Source: Candidatus Heimdallarchaeota archaeon
Lineage (GTDB): Archaea; Asgardarchaeota; Heimdallarchaeia; Heimdallarchaeales; Heimdallarchaeaceae
NCBI GenBank assembly: GCA_018238545.1
Contig: JABCTC010000033.1
Location: 1 to 40,178, forward strand
Length of the DNA: 40,178 nt
Direction: 5' to 3'
In this document: positions 14,834-40,178 of the stretch, piece by piece
How positions within the stretch are numbered: position 1 is the stretch's first letter
Layout: the number at the start of each line of letters is the position of its first letter
Program-made: the position numbers and the translations under genes
Notes under the pieces: model-generated
Seen by the model: the letters and a program-made list of their open reading frames with translations, nothing else
What the model was told of the DNA's origin: nothing
Database searches by the model: none

Positions 14834-15730
14834 ATGGTAAAACAGATTTACGAAACTCTACACACTGAACAGTCTATGTTGGATATAACTCCAGAGTTAG
14901 AACAAAAAGTTCACAAAATGCTCTTAGCTACTGAAAGACAAGTTCCAAACTTCTGGGAGATTGATACAACTGACAGTTTCTATGCCCCTGTAGATGATGG
15001 TGAAATCAGAGTATACCATTTTAAGCCTAATAATCCAATTTCAAAACGTCCTCTAGTTTTTATTCCTGGATGGGGAGGAACTGAAATAGGATTTATGGAT
15101 TTTTACGAAGTCATCCATGATAAGGTCGAGTGTTATTATATCGAAACTCGTGAAAAGAGAAGTAGCAGATTGGATAGAAAAAGAGCCAAAATAGATATGA
15201 GTCAAAAAGCTAAAGATATTCAAGATGTGATTAACTACCTTGAATTTGGCAAGAAAGATTTTGTTCTCTATGGCACTTGCTGGGGCGGATCAATAATTTT
15301 ACAAGGTTTAATTGATGAAGTAATAGACGCTCCAACTATTATTACTAATGATCCTATGCATACTCTATGGTTTCCGAAATGGTTTCTTAGATTTGTTTCA
15401 CCCATATTACCTGTTTTTGTAGTTGAACTCATTAGGTCCATAGTTAAACGAATACAGTTGTGTGGTATGAAGGAAGAAGTTCAAAGAAAAAGAGCTGAAA
15501 TTTTTGCGGATAATGCTGAAATTTGGAAATGGAAAAGAGCAGCTGACTCAGTAAAGGATTTTGAGCTCTTTGGTAAAGTTTCTGATATAACAAAGGAAGT
15601 TTTTGTAACCAATGGTACTAAAGATAAGATCCATAATCAACTAGATTACCCAAAAATCGCTGCTGAACTTCCCAATGGAAGATTCATTTACATGAAGACA
15701 GATGAATCTAGAAGAGAACGCACGTTATGA
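14834..15730 (+). CDS. Alpha/beta-fold hydrolase, 3' end interrupted by the mobile element (last codons come from the element)
   Basis: LVFIPGWGG oxyanion strand, GTCWGG nucleophile elbow, GTKDKIH acid. The sequence from 15716 is shared with the repeat at 40079 and supplies the TGA. Confidence 0.82.
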   Translation: MVKQIYETLHTEQSMLDITPELEQKVHKMLLATERQVPNFWEIDTTDSFYAPVDDGEIRVYHFKPNNPISKRPLVFIPGWGGTEIGFMDFYEVIHDKVECYYIETREKRSSRLDRKRAKIDMSQKAKDIQDVINYLEFGKKDFVLYGTCWGGSIILQGLIDEVIDAPTIITNDPMHTLWFPKWFLRFVSPILPVFVVELIRSIVKRIQLCGMKEEVQRKRAEIFADNAEIWKWKRAADSVKDFELFGKVSDITKEVFVTNGTKDKIHNQLDYPKIAAELPNGRFIYMKTDESRRERTL

Positions 15731-15806
15731 AACTTGGTCAAACTTTCCAGAGGCGGTCTAACCGTCGTTTAAGTGGGTCCCCTCACGTGCGTTGAGGGGA
15801 AGAGGA
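15716..15806 (-). ncRNA. Putative omega/reRNA scaffold of the TnpB-like protein (guide would continue into the flanking DNA)
   Basis: Conserved non-coding 91 nt between the stop codon and the element end. Contains an 8-bp hairpin (15778-15800) whose 7-nt loop is complementary to 15718-15724 (pseudoknot), and a second hairpin at 15752-15766. Confidence 0.65.
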
Positions 15807-17714
15807 TCATAGAGGCGGAAGAGGTGTACCTGAGAGAGAAGCGATATTGTGCGCGGCATTAATATGAGTATTAACTTTCCGTCCGCATTTAGTGCAAGGG
15901 GCAAGATCATACTGACCTTGAAGACGAACTAACGTTCCTCCACAACCATAATGAACAGAACTAGTATGATAAGGACGAACAGACTCTAATTGCACTTGAT
16001 AACCTAAATCTTGAGAAGCTAACCAGACAGCTTTCTGGTAAATGAAGAGATTATCAGGCATGGTGTAAATAGCTTTAGCTAATGCACCCTTAGTACCTGA
16101 GGGGTCAACAGTTAACTGCTCAATTTTCAAGGTTTTACACTGTTTTTTCACCAAAACTGCTGCAAGAAGGTGGGGGAGAAGACGAGTAAGCTCGCGAATG
16201 ATTCGCATACGGCGAGTATAAACTCTATTAAGCTCTCCCTGCAACTTACAGAAACCAAGAGTGTCTCGAGCTTTGCGTTTGCGCATCAATCCCCGATGGA
16301 GTTCAGGGAGAACTTTAGCAGTAAGGTGGGTATAACGTTCAGCTAGAAGCAAGATGTCTGGAGGGAGAGAAACAGAGGTGTTGAATGCCAACATATGTAC
16401 TCCTAAGCGATTGATATCTAAACCCAGAATAGCTTTCTTCTGACTTGAGATAAGCGGGAGATAAGTGTGGAGAAGGGTAGAGGAGTGGAAACAATCCATT
16501 GCTCCCTCGAGAACTACATCCACTCGAGGTTTGTAACTAGGTGCTTGACCACTGCTAACTTGGAAAAGTTTGATCTCTGCACCATTATGAATATACTCTC
16601 GTATTTTGGAGGGAAAAAGTGTTTTTGCAACAAGCTTCTTCTTCCCTTTCTGGGAAAAACCTAGTTCAGTCCCTCCTTGCTTCTTAATTTGTGTTGTTAG
16701 TGTTTTCGCATTCCCTTGTCGGGTGATAACATAATCTTTTTTCATTAACAATTTTACTGGTAATCTTCCTTTCTTTTTTCTTTTAAATGGTAAAGGAACA
16801 ACTTTTGCCACTGGGAGACCTTTAAGTAACTGAGGGACACTCTGCATGAAATGGTCAAAGAGTGTGAAAACAGTGATCAGCCTGATAGCTGAAAAAAGTT
16901 TTCGGGAAGGCTTCCCAAGAGTTTTTGCTAGTTGTTCTGCTAGTATTTTGAGACTTTTCCAACGAGAAAGTTGGGGACTGTTAATCCACGAGGCGAGAAA
17001 AGGGATAACGACTGCTTGCTCTTTTTTTAGTAGTTGGAGTTTGGCTAAAAAGGCTTGTTGCCTCTTGGTTATTTGGGGAATAGTAGTGAATTCATTAGTG
17101 TAAAAGAACAGTGCATCATCTATCGCTTGTACTATTGCTTGTTGTGTTGTAGAGGTGAGGAAAGAATTATGGTTTAAGTTATTAAGATGATAAGTTGCTT
17201 TCTTTTTCTTTCTCCAATATCCATCTGCTTGTTGTCTGGTGCTGGTTAAGAGGTTGATAACGTACCTTCGTTTAAGTTTCCAATAGTTCCCTAAACTGCT
17301 TTCAGCATAAGGTGATCTACCAAAGATCATCCATTCTACAAGTTGTTGAGGGTTCTTGGCAAGGAAATTGAGCAACCCTTGCACTTTTTGTTCCTTATCT
17401 TTTTTCCCTTTGATTGCAATATGCAACCAATGGAAAGCACTTTCTGCTATGTTAGGACTCTTCCCCACTTCTTTGCATAGTTGGCGGGTGAAGAACCCTT
17501 CCTTAGGGTTGGATTTGTATAATGTTTCTGCTTTCTTTACTATTTTCGGAGAAAGGAGGAGCAGTTGCTGTTCTTCTAGCTTTCTTATCCTTCGGTTGAT
17601 CTCTTCTCGTTGTTGCTGGTCTACACATTTTAGCGCCACTTGGTAGCTTCGCATCACCGTCTTTGAGTGAGTGTTGACAGCTACTTGTGCTTTCTTTGTT
17701 GCTTGTGAGACCAT
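15807..17714 (-). CDS. tnpB: Large TnpB/Cas12-like RuvC + zinc-ribbon protein (~635 aa), RuvC-III Asp replaced by His
   Basis: RuvC-I ILGLDINRLG (D436), RuvC-II LKIEQL (E535), VRPYHTSS-HYGC...CTKCG zinc ribbon, NTHINAAHNIA (H620; ORF-track numbering). ATG 17714 is preceded by GGTGA-5nt, so the track's GTG 17723 is probably part of the RBS. Confidence 0.85.
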   Translation of the reverse strand: MVSQATKKAQVAVNTHSKTVMRSYQVALKCVDQQQREEINRRIRKLEEQQLLLLSPKIVKKAETLYKSNPKEGFFTRQLCKEVGKSPNIAESAFHWLHIAIKGKKDKEQKVQGLLNFLAKNPQQLVEWMIFGRSPYAESSLGNYWKLKRRYVINLLTSTRQQADGYWRKKKKATYHLNNLNHNSFLTSTTQQAIVQAIDDALFFYTNEFTTIPQITKRQQAFLAKLQLLKKEQAVVIPFLASWINSPQLSRWKSLKILAEQLAKTLGKPSRKLFSAIRLITVFTLFDHFMQSVPQLLKGLPVAKVVPLPFKRKKKGRLPVKLLMKKDYVITRQGNAKTLTTQIKKQGGTELGFSQKGKKKLVAKTLFPSKIREYIHNGAEIKLFQVSSGQAPSYKPRVDVVLEGAMDCFHSSTLLHTYLPLISSQKKAILGLDINRLGVHMLAFNTSVSLPPDILLLAERYTHLTAKVLPELHRGLMRKRKARDTLGFCKLQGELNRVYTRRMRIIRELTRLLPHLLAAVLVKKQCKTLKIEQLTVDPSGTKGALAKAIYTMPDNLFIYQKAVWLASQDLGYQVQLESVRPYHTSSVHYGCGGTLVRLQGQYDLAPCTKCGRKVNTHINAAHNIASLSGTPLPPL

Positions 17715-17742
17715 CGTCTTCACCTATTTATCCACAGAATGG

Positions 17743-17750
17743 TATATAAA
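17743..17750 (-). promoter_or_regulatory. TATA box (TTTATATA) of the tnpB-like gene
   Basis: Archaeal TATA consensus ~29 bp upstream of ATG 17714, with the RBS GGTGA at 17724-17720. Confidence 0.6.
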
Positions 17751-17813
17751 CGCGAAGAAAAGTCAGCTAGGAGGAGTTTTTCCTCATAACAAGATTGGGT
17801 AAGTTTCTGCTCA

Positions 17814-19952
17814 TCAGTTGACTACGGTCATTGCATTAATAATAACAAGCAGAGAAGCACCAAGATCACCTATAAGAACAGCTAACCATAGTAAAGAATC
17901 GCCGAAGAAACTTCCAATAGCTGCAATTGAAACGCTTAGAAACACTAATACAAAAAATGAGAGTTTAATGAAGAGTGAGAGAAAAATATTAATTCTAATC
18001 GTTCTTTGGGTTTCTTTGCTAAGTTTGAACAAATATGGGAGACTGAATAAATCATCAGAAGCAAGCACTATATCGGCAGTCTCAATCGCAATTGCTGTAC
18101 CAGCTACCCCCATCGCTATTCCAACATCAGAAAGAGCTAAAGCTGGAGCATCATTTATTCCATCTCCAATCATTGCAATTGATTGACCATTATCTTTAAC
18201 TTCTTTGACATATTGCATTTTATCTTCAGGAAGTAATTCTGCTCTATAATCAATCCCTAACTCGCTAGCAATTTTTGAAGCTACCTCCTCATTATCTCCA
18301 GTGAGCATTACAATATTAGTTATTCCTATGTCTTTCAGAGCTTCAATAGACATTTTTGTTTCTAATCGCAGTTCATCAGACATATGTATGTGTGCTATTA
18401 CTTTCTCATCAGTTAAAACATAACTAACGATGCTTTCTGATTCCTCGCAATCCAAATCGCATGATTCAAGTGTTAAGACCTTATCAACCAGTGCTTCATT
18501 TCCAAGATAGAAATTTGTGTCTTTTCTTGTACCCTTAATTCCCATTCCGGGGAGAATCTTGACATCTTTATAACCAAACAATCTGGAATTGTTCCTTTCG
18601 CCAAGATCTATTATAGCTTGAGCAATCTTATGCTCTGAATGGTATTCTAGACCATAAGCTATTTCAATTATTTCTTGTTTTGAATAACCTTCCAAAGCTT
18701 CTACTTTATAGGCACGCAAATTTCCTGTGGATAAAGTGCCGGTTTTATCCATAGCAACTGTATCGACATCAGAAAGTGCTTCTAGAAATTTTCCACCTTT
18801 GATCAATACTCCACGTTTGGAGGCACGTGTTATAGCAGTAACTACAGTGATGGGAGTTGAAAGAACTAGTGCACATGGGCAGGATATAACCAAAATAACC
18901 AAACTTTGATACAACCAGTAACGAAGAGTTTCTGTATCTATTGGAATATTAAGAAATACCCCTGGTACAAGGAAAACTAACAATGCGACACCAACCATAA
19001 TAGGTGTATAATATTTTGCGAACCTCTGGATAAACAATTCTCTTTTTGACTTCTGTTGTTCTGCATCTTCAATAAGCAGTCTTATTCGGGCAACAGTAGA
19101 TTCTTGTGGCATTCTAGTAACTCGGATTATAATATAACCATCAAGATTTATAGAACCAGAAAAAACTTGATCTCCAACGGTTTTGACTATTGGTGTTGAT
19201 TCTCCTGTGATTGGACTCTGATCAACATTAGTATTGCCCCAGTCTATTTTCCCATCTATAGGTATTTTTCCTCCAGGTTTAACACTCACTCTATCTCCTA
19301 CAATTAAATCTTCTAAGGGTACAGTTTCATGCTTTTTACCTTTTATCAGTCTTATTGCTGTCGGAGGAGTCAAATCCATTAAAGATCGTATTGATTGCCT
19401 CGCTTTATCCATAGAAAAAGCTTCCAACAATTCAGCTAAAGTAAATAGGACGATGATCTCTGCTGCTTCTTCCCATTGTTCAATAATCATTGCACCAATT
19501 ATAGCTAATACCATTAGTAAATCGATATCAAATGTTCTAGCTCTTAGTGAGTTGAATGCTTTTGTATAAACCGGTATCCCTCCTACTACAATTACAGGAA
19601 TATAGAACAGTGGGTGATAATGTTGTACATTTAGAGAATCTATTATTAATGCCGTCACTAAAAATATTGCTCCCACAATGAAGAAAATCAAGTTTTTGTT
19701 GTGTTTGAGATTAAAAAATGATTTTTGCACATAGGTGTGATCAAATCCATAACCGGCTTTCTTGATGATTTTAATAATATCTTTCTCAGAAGTATTTTCA
19801 CTGTTATATTCAACGATGAGTTTTGTTGATACAAGATTAAGTTTAACATCTTTGATACCTAGAGTATTCTCTAAATTTTTTCGTACCTTGGCTACGCAAT
19901 TTGCGCAATCCATTCCAGCTACTACTCCACGTAACACAGGCATATTATTCAA
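17814..19952 (-). CDS. cadA: Heavy-metal P1B-type ATPase (Zn/Cd/Pb, ZntA/CadA-like); stop codon lies inside the inferred element end
   Basis: N-terminal HMA GMDCANC, TGES, SCPCAL, DKTGT, MLTGD, GDGINDAPAL, and Lys/Asp in the last TMs (IKL, GDLG). Confidence 0.92.
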   Translation of the reverse strand: MNNMPVLRGVVAGMDCANCVAKVRKNLENTLGIKDVKLNLVSTKLIVEYNSENTSEKDIIKIIKKAGYGFDHTYVQKSFFNLKHNKNLIFFIVGAIFLVTALIIDSLNVQHYHPLFYIPVIVVGGIPVYTKAFNSLRARTFDIDLLMVLAIIGAMIIEQWEEAAEIIVLFTLAELLEAFSMDKARQSIRSLMDLTPPTAIRLIKGKKHETVPLEDLIVGDRVSVKPGGKIPIDGKIDWGNTNVDQSPITGESTPIVKTVGDQVFSGSINLDGYIIIRVTRMPQESTVARIRLLIEDAEQQKSKRELFIQRFAKYYTPIMVGVALLVFLVPGVFLNIPIDTETLRYWLYQSLVILVISCPCALVLSTPITVVTAITRASKRGVLIKGGKFLEALSDVDTVAMDKTGTLSTGNLRAYKVEALEGYSKQEIIEIAYGLEYHSEHKIAQAIIDLGERNNSRLFGYKDVKILPGMGIKGTRKDTNFYLGNEALVDKVLTLESCDLDCEESESIVSYVLTDEKVIAHIHMSDELRLETKMSIEALKDIGITNIVMLTGDNEEVASKIASELGIDYRAELLPEDKMQYVKEVKDNGQSIAMIGDGINDAPALALSDVGIAMGVAGTAIAIETADIVLASDDLFSLPYLFKLSKETQRTIRINIFLSLFIKLSFFVLVFLSVSIAAIGSFFGDSLLWLAVLIGDLGASLLVIINAMTVVN

Positions 19953-38699: not shown

Positions 38700-40124
38700 A
38701 TGAAAAAGCGAATCATTATCTCTGTAATGATATTATCGATATTTATTGCATCTAGCGGTTTGAAAATAACGGCCAATGAGCTTAGTTTTGACAGCATAGT
38801 GTCAATTAATGAGGAACAAGAGAAGCCTTATTTTGATAATGTTGTATTGATAACATGGGATGGAACTAATTCAGAATGGTTCAACAAACTCATTGATAAC
38901 GGAACTCTGGTTAACTCCCAACGTATTTTAGAAAATGGTTATAGACAATTTGTAAGAGTGGCTTCTCATAGAACAAGTACAGATCCTGGATTAACAACTT
39001 TAGAAACAGGATATGGACCAGATATCACTGGGATTTACTATAATCAATTTGGGGCAGGTACTTTAAAACTAGCAATCCCAGAAGGATTATCAACATTCGA
39101 GCGTTTGAAGAACAGTTTTGGTACTGATATACAAACATCTTTGTTTTTCTCATGGGGTAATGCGCCCATAGATACTACCTACATGGCACAAAGCGCTGAT
39201 TATTGGGGGTCAATTTACAATAATACAATACGAGAAGAAGTTGATTATTATTGGGGTTCAGAAAATCTTAGCTGGGTGCCAGATGACCCAGAAACCTATA
39301 GCGCTATTATCACTCCATTTGACGAAGATGTTGGTATGTATCGCAACCCACTCCTTAAAGCAGAATATTTAGGAAATAAAGCTGTAAATTGGGTAGGAAA
39401 TCATACTAATAATCGATTTTACTTAAGAATGCATTTTACAGAGCCAGACCAAGCAGGTCACGGTTTTGGTGTAACAGAAAGCGAGTTCAGCAAAAGTATT
39501 ACTCCCGAATATATGCAATCCTTAGTTACTTGTGATATTGCAACAGGCATGGTTTACGATGTTCTTGAATCCGCTGGTGTGCTCGACAAAACATTATTCA
39601 TAGTTGGTTCAGATCATGGAATGTATTATCGCAGTCATGATGCTAATCCTTGGCCAGCTGATCAATGGCCAAAGTCAGAGACCACTTTCCTTTTCAGTAA
39701 TTCGTCAGTACAACACCCACTAGGAGATGTTCCAATAAAACAGAAAGACATCTCCCCTACAATCCTAGCATCTATGGGTGTTGATTTATCACTTCTCTCG
39801 CCAGCATATGTTAATGATGACGATACTGGGATACCTTTATGGGACTTCATAGAAGATGATATTCCTTCAATACGTGAGATAACATTCCAAGTAGAAGATG
39901 AGGATTATCAAGTTCTTGATAATGGGGTTAAAATCGGAAAAATTTTCAATATTAGTATGAATGTTTTAGAATGGTGTCGAGATTATGATGCAACACTTGA
40001 AATTGATGGAACTGTTTTTGATGCTAATATAACGAGATCTGATTTTGTTAGATGGTATAATGTTGATACTTCATCTTTGAACGCACGTTATGAAACTTGG
40101 TCAAACTTGCCAGAGGCGGTCTAA
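38700..40124 (+). CDS. Secreted alkaline-phosphatase-superfamily protein, truncated by the second element copy
   Basis: ITWDG, RTSTDPG (Thr nucleophile), EPDQAGH, GSDHG. The terminal NARYETWSNLPEAV is encoded by element sequence from 40079. Confidence 0.85.
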   Translation: MKKRIIISVMILSIFIASSGLKITANELSFDSIVSINEEQEKPYFDNVVLITWDGTNSEWFNKLIDNGTLVNSQRILENGYRQFVRVASHRTSTDPGLTTLETGYGPDITGIYYNQFGAGTLKLAIPEGLSTFERLKNSFGTDIQTSLFFSWGNAPIDTTYMAQSADYWGSIYNNTIREEVDYYWGSENLSWVPDDPETYSAIITPFDEDVGMYRNPLLKAEYLGNKAVNWVGNHTNNRFYLRMHFTEPDQAGHGFGVTESEFSKSITPEYMQSLVTCDIATGMVYDVLESAGVLDKTLFIVGSDHGMYYRSHDANPWPADQWPKSETTFLFSNSSVQHPLGDVPIKQKDISPTILASMGVDLSLLSPAYVNDDDTGIPLWDFIEDDIPSIREITFQVEDEDYQVLDNGVKIGKIFNISMNVLEWCRDYDATLEIDGTVFDANITRSDFVRWYNVDTSSLNARYETWSNLPEAV

Positions 40125-40178
40125 CCGTCGTTTAGGTGGGTCCCCTCGCGTGCGGTGAGGGGAAGAGGATTATAAGGA
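40079..40178 (-). mobile_element. Right end of a second, diverged copy of the TnpB-like element (runs off window)
   Basis: 92/100 identity to 15716-15815, including the last codons of a paralogous gene (TCC TTA TAA vs CCT CTA TGA). Confidence 0.88.

What the first reader, a model, noticed from the sequence alone, without database searches (positions are those of the whole stretch)
15716..17821. Element ends are imperfect inverted repeats with paired heptamers, unlike IS200/IS605
Seen, reading inwards: right end GAACGCACGTTAT-GAAACTT-GGT-CAAACTT(T/G); left end CAACTGATGAGCA-GAAACTT-ACC-CAATCTT-G. That is 18-19 of 31 identical, with two heptamers one helical turn apart, 13 bp from each terminus (15729-15745; 17807-17791). 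No target duplication is visible beyond a GA dinucleotide at all three junctions (15716, 17820, 40079). Established: HUH-type IS200/IS605 ends are hairpins without terminal IRs; IS607 serine-recombinase elements use short repeated motifs and a dinucleotide crossover. Inference: mobilised in trans by an IS607-like or unknown recombinase.
Basis: partly seen in the sequence, partly recalled or inferred. Interest (0 to 1): 0.72.

Follow-up and report, generated by a model that had tools for sequence, protein, structure and literature searches.

The report
IS607-type transposon ends, Asgard archaeon
The paired heptamers are real and are most likely the transposase docking sites of an ordinary IS607-family jumping element in a Heimdall-group Asgard archaeon; the window copy has lost its transposase gene, which longer copies in the same genome still carry.

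Summary
The heptamer pairs exist exactly where stated. The strict motif occurs 23 times in the 3.6-Mb genome, always at element ends (0.19 expected).

The boundaries and the "31-nt terminal inverted repeat" are wrong. Alignment of 27 right ends and 9 left ends, plus three empty sites in relatives, puts the ends at 15718 and 17823-17828. The heptamers then lie 11 nt from one end and 16-21 nt from the other. The junction "GA" is coincidence.

Longer copies with the same ends carry a 196-aa IS607-family serine transposase. The window copy is a 613-bp tnpA deletion, and the same deletion junction sits at two other sites. No Y1 transposase was found.

A subterminal imperfect inverted repeat at unequal distances, and no target duplication, is the published IS607 design.

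Three details differ from the textbook case:
- The target is 5'-ACCGT (tnpB strand) and the shared junction letters are YGT, not GG.
- The right-end heptamers are also one strand of a covarying guide-RNA stem.
- The last 7 nt form a covarying pseudoknot, and its -3 base tracks the target's -3 base.

Earlier reports of this scan described this family on other contigs. Verdict: a new member of a known kind.

The parts
15718..15812 (-). Right end (RE): about 95 nt conserved in every tnpB copy and every miniature copy. It is the 3' part of the guide-RNA (omega-RNA-like) scaffold; the guide would start at 15717 and read downwards.
   Evidence: 27 termini aligned. 49-sequence alignment A1 with covariation.
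15718..15720 (.). ACG shared by both junctions and the empty site. This is the zone that must contain the crossover dinucleotide (AC or CG on the + strand; GT or CG/TG on the tnpB strand).
   Evidence: Empty sites. The third base matches the target's third base in 15/15 and 4/4 complete copies.
15729..15745 (+). RE heptamer pair GAAACTT-GGT-CAAACTT, positions 12-28 from the end. Proposed TnpA binding sites; on the RNA strand they are the 3' strand of a stem.
   Evidence: statistics; stem columns 103-106/140-143 and 110-116/131-137, with 3 pairs showing compensatory changes.
15779..15799 (-). Hairpin CCCCUC-A-ACGCACG-U-GAGGGG. Its loop (15786-15792) is complementary to the terminal 15718-15724, forming a pseudoknot.
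   Evidence: pseudoknot helix 94.8% paired; GC to AU in 6 sequences and CG to UA/AU in 3. Further compensatory variants.
15807..17714 (-). Intact tnpB-like gene (635 aa from the ATG at 17714; 638 aa from the GTG at 17723). Large TnpB with His at the RuvC-III position.
   Evidence: only the C-terminal Zn-ribbon/TNB region matches, below cut-offs. 121 homologue clusters; every source name that gives an organism says Heimdallarchaeota, apart from one 'subsurface metagenome' record. D436, E535 and H620 invariant.
17782..17785 (.). Deletion junction: 613 bp holding tnpA are missing relative to copy C102 (its 1044-1656), at a short CCTC-type microhomology.
   Evidence: The identical junction is found in C71:1-1084 and at the end of C7, with different flanks.
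17791..17807 (-). Left-end (LE) heptamer pair GAAACTT-ACC-CAATCTT, inverted relative to the RE pair.
   Evidence: Conserved as AAAWCTT-N3-CAATCTT in diverged full copies and miniature copies while the neighbouring bases vary.
17808..17823 (-). 16-nt LE terminal spacer. Its length is fixed in most copies and its sequence is variable except a CAGT/ACTG island.
   Evidence: spacer 16 nt in 56 of 82 pattern hits, some of them chance; consensus caACTG..
17824..17828 (.). Target pentamer ACGGT (ACCGT on the tnpB strand), the probable TAM. Its first three bases, ACG, repeat the first three bases of the RE.
   Evidence: Orthologous empty site G016:C60 reads CCA-ACGGT-CATTGC. The pentamer is the last conserved block of every LE.
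40081..40178 (-). Right end of a second copy, cut off by the end of the contig.
14834..15717 (+). Left-flank gene (no Pfam match), cut by an insertion. Its continuation lies after the left end of a different, tnpA-bearing copy on contig C102.
17829..19952 (-). Heavy-metal P-type ATPase gene hit 16 codons before its stop. Its missing tail lies next to the right end of another copy on contig C63.
   Evidence: HMA, E1-E2 ATPase, hydrolase domains..

Best explanation
The 2.1-kb element (15718 to about 17825) is a non-autonomous member of an IS607-family insertion sequence of a Heimdall-group Asgard archaeon.

Full copies (about 2.7 kb) encode a serine-recombinase transposase (TnpA: N-terminal MerR-like HTH plus resolvase-type catalytic domain). 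Downstream lie a large TnpB-like RNA-guided nuclease and its guide RNA at the right end. The window copy has lost tnpA through a 613-bp deletion.

The paired heptamers, 10 bp apart, are most likely the subterminal sites where a TnpA dimer docks with its two HTH domains on one face of the helix. They form an imperfect inverted repeat so that both ends can be synapsed. As in other IS607 elements they lie at different distances from the two crossover points.

TnpA made by a full copy would excise the element as a circle and reinsert it at 5'-ACCGT (tnpB strand). Strands would be exchanged at a dinucleotide inside the shared YGT, so nothing is duplicated.

The right end is dual-coded. The same heptamers are one strand of a guide-RNA stem, and the last 7 nt form a pseudoknot with a hairpin loop. 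TnpB would then use ACCGT as its TAM and the flank beyond 15717 as guide, to re-cut emptied donor sites.

Shown: ends, target pentamer, absence of duplication, TnpA family, RNA covariation, copy structure. Inferred: TnpA binding to the heptamers, the circle intermediate, the exact crossover dinucleotide, and TnpB activity and TAM.
For: - Boundaries from 27 right ends and 9 left ends.
- Three empty sites in relatives, each holding a single pentamer where the element sits.
- IS607 TnpA in copies with identical ends.
- tnpA deletion mapped. The same junction occurs at three sites, and about nine protein-less copies of roughly 400 nt share both ends. Both facts require mobilisation in trans.
- The strict motif occurs only at element ends. 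At the left end it stays conserved while its surroundings vary, in elements only 70-78% identical.
- Chen et al. [quoted passage not shown] They also describe 10-bp-spaced motifs bound by TnpA dimers, and two motifs at bp 10-28 of the IS1535 right end. Here the pair is at bp 12-28.
- RNA structure: 97.4% of cells paired against about 40% when the partners are slid; 5 pairs with compensatory changes; 0 of 500 shuffles reach the observed values.
Against: - No binding or transposition experiment exists for this element.
- The termini are not GG, which 'most' IS607 members have (PMC6188088).
- At the right end the heptamers are also constrained by RNA pairing, so their conservation there does not by itself show protein binding.
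- Only two motifs per end were found, whereas the IS1535 left end needs four for efficient synapsis.
- Four of 17 full copies from other Heimdall genomes have left and right ends that do not share YGT.
- The window copy's flanks are not a matched pair. Part of the picture therefore rests on sibling copies and on draft assemblies that break inside the repeat.
Confidence: 0.85

Rival explanations
1. The heptamer pairs are conserved for RNA reasons only. At the right end they build the guide-RNA stem. At the left end the complementary copy would pair with the right-end RNA (14 of 18 positions) or act in the 5' leader, for instance to control tnpA/tnpB expression or guide-RNA maturation. The transposase would then recognise something else, such as the ACTG island or the ACYGT/YGT ends.
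For: Covarying stem that includes both right-end heptamers. The left-end motif is the reverse complement of the right-end motif (sequence). A conserved ACTG island lies between the left-end heptamers and the end.
Against: - The left-end pair lies only 16 nt inside the element and upstream of every promoter-like sequence seen; whether it is transcribed is unknown.
- An inverted arrangement with a 10-bp phase is what a dimeric HTH transposase needs, and it is documented for IS607 elements (PMC6188088).
- The three spacer bases differ between the ends (GGT against ACC read inwards), which weakens any RNA duplex but is irrelevant to protein half-sites.
- The two readings are not mutually exclusive.
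Confidence: 0.1
2. The element and its miniature copies are moved by a recombinase other than the element-encoded TnpA. Candidates are a host small serine recombinase or homologous recombination and gene conversion between copies. On this reading tnpA in the long copies is a passenger or is no longer active.
For: Two of the four tnpA loci carry stop codons. The window copy's flanks show that copies recombine with each other. Weaker resolvase-like hits exist elsewhere in the genome (C6, C88, C26, all below the cut-off).
Against: Two tnpA genes are intact and full length against the IS607 model. tnpA sits inside the same ends, in the canonical position, in several genomes. Insertions are precise at one pentamer in many unrelated sites, which homologous recombination cannot produce.
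Confidence: 0.04
3. An IS200/IS605-type element moved as single-stranded DNA by a Y1 HUH transposase. Its conserved 5-nt left-flank motif would be the cleavage/target site.
For: A conserved pentamer directly outside the left end and a hairpin near the right end.
Against: - No Y1 transposase was found in the genome (assembly 91.8% complete).
- The left end does not fold better than shuffles (z -0.37).
- Both ends carry the same motif in inverted, not direct, orientation.
- A serine transposase is encoded inside sibling copies.
- Both junctions share ACG with the empty site.
Confidence: 0.01

Closest known systems
IS1535 (Mycobacterium tuberculosis), IS607 (Helicobacter pylori) and ISC1926 (Sulfolobus), as analysed by Chen et al. 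2018, eLife (PMC6188088)
   Same: - tnpA (serine recombinase with N-terminal HTH) followed by tnpB.
- No terminal inverted repeats and no target duplication.
[quoted passage not shown]
- Short motifs about 10 bp apart that bind TnpA dimers; the two motifs of the IS1535 right end lie at bp 10-28, and here at bp 12-28.
- The same short sequence is shared by both junctions and the target.
- The TnpA catalytic domain is closest to ISC1926 TnpA (6dgc).
   Different: - The shared junction letters are YGT (ACG on the + strand), not GG.
- The target is a 5-nt motif, ACCGT.
- Only two motifs per end were seen.
- TnpB is about 640 aa, with His in place of the RuvC-III Asp.
- The host is an Asgard archaeon.
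CboIStron, the IS607-family element of Clostridium botulinum (bioRxiv 10.1101/2023.11.20.567912)
   Same: - The serine TnpA excises a circle and leaves a scarless donor joint.
- The target motif chosen by TnpA equals the TnpB TAM.
- The right end finishes with the core letters, so the guide-RNA scaffold's last bases repeat the end of the TAM (TGGG against TCGG there; ACCGT against TGCGT here).
- 40-60 bp of each end suffice for excision.
   Different: No group I intron was seen here. The core is different. Nothing has been tested experimentally here. A large family of protein-less miniature copies is present.
RuvC-III Asp-to-His TnpB branches and serine-recombinase-associated archaeal TnpB clades (Altae-Tran et al. 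2023, PNAS, PMC10691335)
   Same: A conserved His at the RuvC-III position across a whole branch. Association with serine recombinase TnpA. A largely archaeal distribution.
   Different: I did not place this family on their tree, so which named branch it belongs to is untested.

Membership tests
IS607 family | Transposase is a serine recombinase with an N-terminal MerR-like HTH and a C-terminal catalytic domain | tested here: met
   Met in sibling copies with the same ends, not in the window copy. NCBIfam NF033518: 174.5 bits (cut-off 110) over positions 3-185 of 187. MerR-type HTH hits at residues 3-46. 6dgc, 3lhk, 3ilx and 6dgb are the best solved relatives. 4 loci, 2 intact.
IS607 family | tnpA followed by tnpB on the same strand inside one pair of ends | tested here: met
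   C102, C72 and C71:12851-15580. The window copy keeps tnpB only.
IS607 family | [quoted passage not shown] | tested here: met
   The heptamer pair lies 11 nt from the right end and 16-21 nt from the left end. The outer segments are unrelated (5 of 13).
IS607 family | No target-site duplication; both junctions and the empty target share the crossover dinucleotide | tested here: met
   Three empty sites. The empty site has one ACGGT-type pentamer. The occupied site has ACG at the right-end junction and ACGGT at the left-end junction.
IS607 family | Termini and target are GG (true of 'most' members, PMC6188088) | tested here: not met
   The right end finishes ...GTGCGT or ...GTGTGT, and the left flank is ACCGT or ACTGT. 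This is not a strict family criterion.
IS607 family | Transposition through a circular double-stranded intermediate, dependent on the catalytic serine | not testable with these tools
   Needs PCR across the RE-LE junction or a transposition assay.
TnpB / omega-RNA (OMEGA) systems | Structured guide-RNA scaffold at the 3' end of tnpB, running to the transposon end, with a pseudoknot next to the guide | tested here: met
   Covariation on 49 sequences and more variants. No Rfam family matches. Expression and processing were not tested.
TnpB / omega-RNA (OMEGA) systems | RuvC D-E-D catalytic triad | tested here: not met
   D436 and E535 are invariant, but the third position is an invariant His (H620) down to 31% identity. 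His-type branches are catalogued in PMC10691335. Activity is untested.
IS200/IS605 family | Y1 HUH transposase | tested here: not met
   No PF01797 match in the genome (91.8% complete); the controls gave matches.
IS200/IS605 family | Subterminal hairpins at both ends on the same strand | tested here: not met
   The left end folds no better than shuffles on either strand (z about -0.4). The right-end hairpin is explained by the guide RNA.

The most novel reading that the evidence does not exclude
Three functions may be written in the same three letters at the right end (YGT). These letters are (1) the zone where the serine transposase exchanges strands, (2) the last bases of the guide-RNA scaffold, locked in a pseudoknot, and (3) a repeat of the last bases of the TAM/target.

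The -3 base changes together in all three places: the hairpin loop, the right-end terminus and the target. C goes with C and T with T in 19 of 19 complete copies in the genus. In other Heimdall genomes 13 of 17 copies agree.

If this is not just shared ancestry, the element's target choice is re-programmable by one base that must be matched in RNA structure, transposase core and TAM. One mechanism would be a CG/TG crossover dinucleotide instead of GG. Another would be guide RNA pairing that reaches into the 'TAM'.
Probability: 0.2. Interest if true: 0.6.

Novelty: new member of a known kind. Interest (0 to 1): 0.3.

Why it matters
For annotation, this fixes the ends, target motif, probable TAM and guide start of a transposon family that breaks many contigs in Heimdall-group Asgard genomes. 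It also explains two disrupted genes in this window.

For mechanism, it offers a natural IS607 element with a non-GG junction and a 5-nt target. Its transposase sites overlap a guide-RNA stem, which makes it a compact case for asking how transposase specificity, TAM and guide-RNA structure are kept compatible.

None of this changes the general picture of IS607 elements.

Tried and rejected
- Assembly chimera of two copies. I tested whether the window copy is an assembly chimera of the copies on C63 and C102. It differs by about 9-10% from every other copy along its whole length, so it is a distinct copy. However, its last 200 nt or so are identical to those of C71a and C7. The link to its right flank therefore depends on the assembler's repeat resolution.
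- Known RNA family. An Rfam search of 15400-18100 gave no match.
- Fold of the whole right-end region. The 243-nt stretch does not fold better than shuffles (z -0.43). Only the terminal 95 nt or so carry the supported structure.
- Further motif copies. I looked for third or fourth heptamer copies deeper in either end, as in the IS1535 left end. None is in phase and none is conserved between subfamilies.
- The exact crossover dinucleotide. I tried to fix it from variants. The CAT-type right ends (L038, L129) pair with ACTGT left flanks and fit neither GT nor YG, so this stays open.
- Dyad symmetry around the inferred circle junction: none seen by eye.
- Labelling the left-flank gene as a hydrolase: dropped, because it has no Pfam match.
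Full report
**What is in the window.** Between a truncated unnamed ORF (14834-15717, +) and a heavy-metal P-type ATPase gene (17829-19952, -) lies a 2.1-kb block. It has 41.6% G+C in a 34% genome. It holds one long ORF on the minus strand (15807-17723, 638 aa). Only the last 55 residues or so match TnpB/Cas12f models, and below their cut-offs. Homologues form 121 clusters at 31-94% identity; every source name that gives an organism says Heimdallarchaeota, apart from one 'subsurface metagenome' record. A scan of GTDB genomes returned 75 loci, nearly all titled Heimdallarchaeota. D436, E535 and a His at the RuvC-III position are invariant. His-type branches are catalogued in PMC10691335.

**Checking the observation.**
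- They are not chance. The strict pattern GAAACTT-N3-CAAWCTT occurs 23 times in the 3.63-Mb assembly: 20 at right ends and 3 at left ends, against 0.19 expected. A looser pattern gives 50 hits, 41 of them at element ends.
- The boundaries are not right. Among 27 right ends, conservation begins at ACGCACG (15718) and the two preceding bases vary. So the 'GA' seen at three junctions is coincidence.

**Empty sites.**
- The ATPase flank in relative G016 reads ...TTCTTCCA-ACGGT-CATTGC. In this genome the missing 3' tail of that gene (...tttctttctccCA) lies next to the right end of another copy on contig C63.
- The left-flank ORF continues in relatives as agaagaga-[AAGGT / ACGTT / GAGAT]-TAATGGG. 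Here TAATGGGATTGG... follows the left end of a tnpA-bearing copy on C102.
- A miniature copy on C21 sits where relatives have GT-[ATGGT / CTGGT / GAAGT]-AAAA.
- In all three cases the empty site holds one pentamer. The occupied site has flank-ACG...element...ACGGT-flank. The target is therefore 5'-ACGGT (ACCGT on the tnpB strand). Nothing is duplicated, and ACG is shared by both junctions.
- A side result: the window copy's two flanks belong to two different insertion sites. The copy differs by about 9-10% from all others along its length, so it is not a simple chimera of two contigs. Either copies have recombined or the assembler mis-resolved the 200-nt stretch that three left ends share.

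**Who moves it.**
- Copies with the same ends on C102 and C72 carry a 196-aa ORF between tnpB and the left end.
- This ORF is an IS607-family transposase: NF033518, 174.5 bits against a cut-off of 110, with a MerR-type HTH at residues 3-46. Its closest solved relatives are ISC1926 TnpA, MJ0014, ISC1904 ORF1 and IS1535 TnpA.
- The genome has four such loci, two of them intact. It has no Y1 transposase.
- The window copy lacks 613 bp that hold tnpA (junction 17782-17785). The identical junction occurs in C71:1-1084 and at the end of C7, next to different flanks.
- About nine protein-less copies of roughly 400 nt share both ends.
- The deletion derivatives and the miniature copies can only have spread with transposase supplied in trans, or by recombination between copies.

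**How the ends compare with the literature.** Chen et al. 2018 (PMC6188088) state that IS607-family termini are unrelated. [quoted passage not shown] The IS1535 right end has just two motifs, at bp 10-28. Here the pair occupies bp 12-28 of the right end and begins 16 nt inside the target pentamer at the left end.

Across elements only 70-78% identical, and across miniature copies, the left end keeps ACYGT-N16-AAAWCTT-N3-CAATCTT while the spacer varies, apart from an ACTG island. That is the signature of a cis site under selection. TnpA binding itself is inferred, not shown.

**The right end is also RNA.** An alignment of 49 distinct right ends supports three features:
- a hairpin at 15779-15799;
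- a long stem in which both heptamers form the 3' strand;
- a pseudoknot between the hairpin loop (15786-15792) and the last 7 nt (15718-15724).

In this structure 97.4% of cells are paired, against about 40% when the partners are slid. Five pairs have changes on both sides, and 0 of 500 shuffles reach the observed values. More compensatory variants appear in other genomes. Rfam has no matching family. This fits a TnpB guide RNA whose guide starts at 15717.

**Target, TAM and the -3 base.**
- On the tnpB strand the left flank is ACCGT and the right end finishes TGCGT. This repeats the CboIStron logic, TAM TGGG against right end TCGG (bioRxiv 10.1101/2023.11.20.567912).
- A second subfamily has ACTGT and TGTGT.
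- In complete copies from this genus the -3 base agrees in 15 of 15 C-type and 4 of 4 T-type cases. In GTDB Heimdall genomes it agrees in 7 C-type and 6 T-type cases, with 4 discordant copies.
- The hairpin loop changes with it.
- This suggests that the crossover dinucleotide is YG rather than GT, or that RNA pairing reaches into the TAM. Sequence alone cannot decide, and related copies are not independent observations.

**Verdict.** The inference of mobilisation in trans by an IS607-like recombinase is supported. The architecture is the published IS607 design, here with a non-GG junction, a 5-nt target and dual-coded right-end motifs. Earlier reports of this scan on other contigs of the same genome (e1-5526221, e1-5525713, e1-5526089, e1-5525793) reached the same family assignment. 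I re-derived the copy number, the transposase, the His residue, the pseudoknot and the miniature copies independently. I added the empty sites, the target pentamer and the end geometry.

Noticed in passing
window 14834-15717 and 17829-19952; G000 contigs C63:1-1210 and C102:1-1760: The window copy joins the 5' part of one interrupted gene to the 5' part of another (a P-type ATPase). The matching 3' parts lie next to other copies on C102 and C63. This is either an inversion or other recombination between element copies, or a repeat mis-resolution in the assembly.
   Followed up: partly
G000 C43:96165-96565, C21:11427-11827, C90:3734-4133 (loci L023, L024, L083): Protein-less miniature copies of roughly 400 nt. 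They keep the 95-nt right end, a different structured interior and a left end with AAATCTT-ATT-CAATCTT. At least nine are present in this genome and more in relatives.
   Followed up: partly
G000 C43:677-775 (locus L008): In one right end the hairpin loop is inverted: CACGTGCGTTG where the other copies have the reverse complement. Because the loop sequence is nearly self-complementary, pseudoknot pairing would survive with two G-U pairs.
   Followed up: no
window 17728-17760, minus strand: A TTTATATA box about 28 nt upstream of the ATG at 17714 looks like an archaeal TATA promoter for a nearly leaderless tnpB transcript. It lies inside the sequence retained after the tnpA deletion.
   Followed up: no
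locus L112 (JAGLTB010000021.1): The 8 nt outside the right end (TTATGTTT) are the reverse complement of 8 nt just outside the left end (AAACATAA). The left pentamer there is ACTTT. This may be an insertion into a palindromic site or a rearranged copy.
   Followed up: no
loci L038, L078, L118, L122, L127, L129, L136: A subfamily whose right end finishes GCAT, with a compensating change in the hairpin loop. Where the left end is readable, its flank is ACTGT (L038, L129). The guide-RNA fold was therefore kept while the two ends no longer share YGT.
   Followed up: partly
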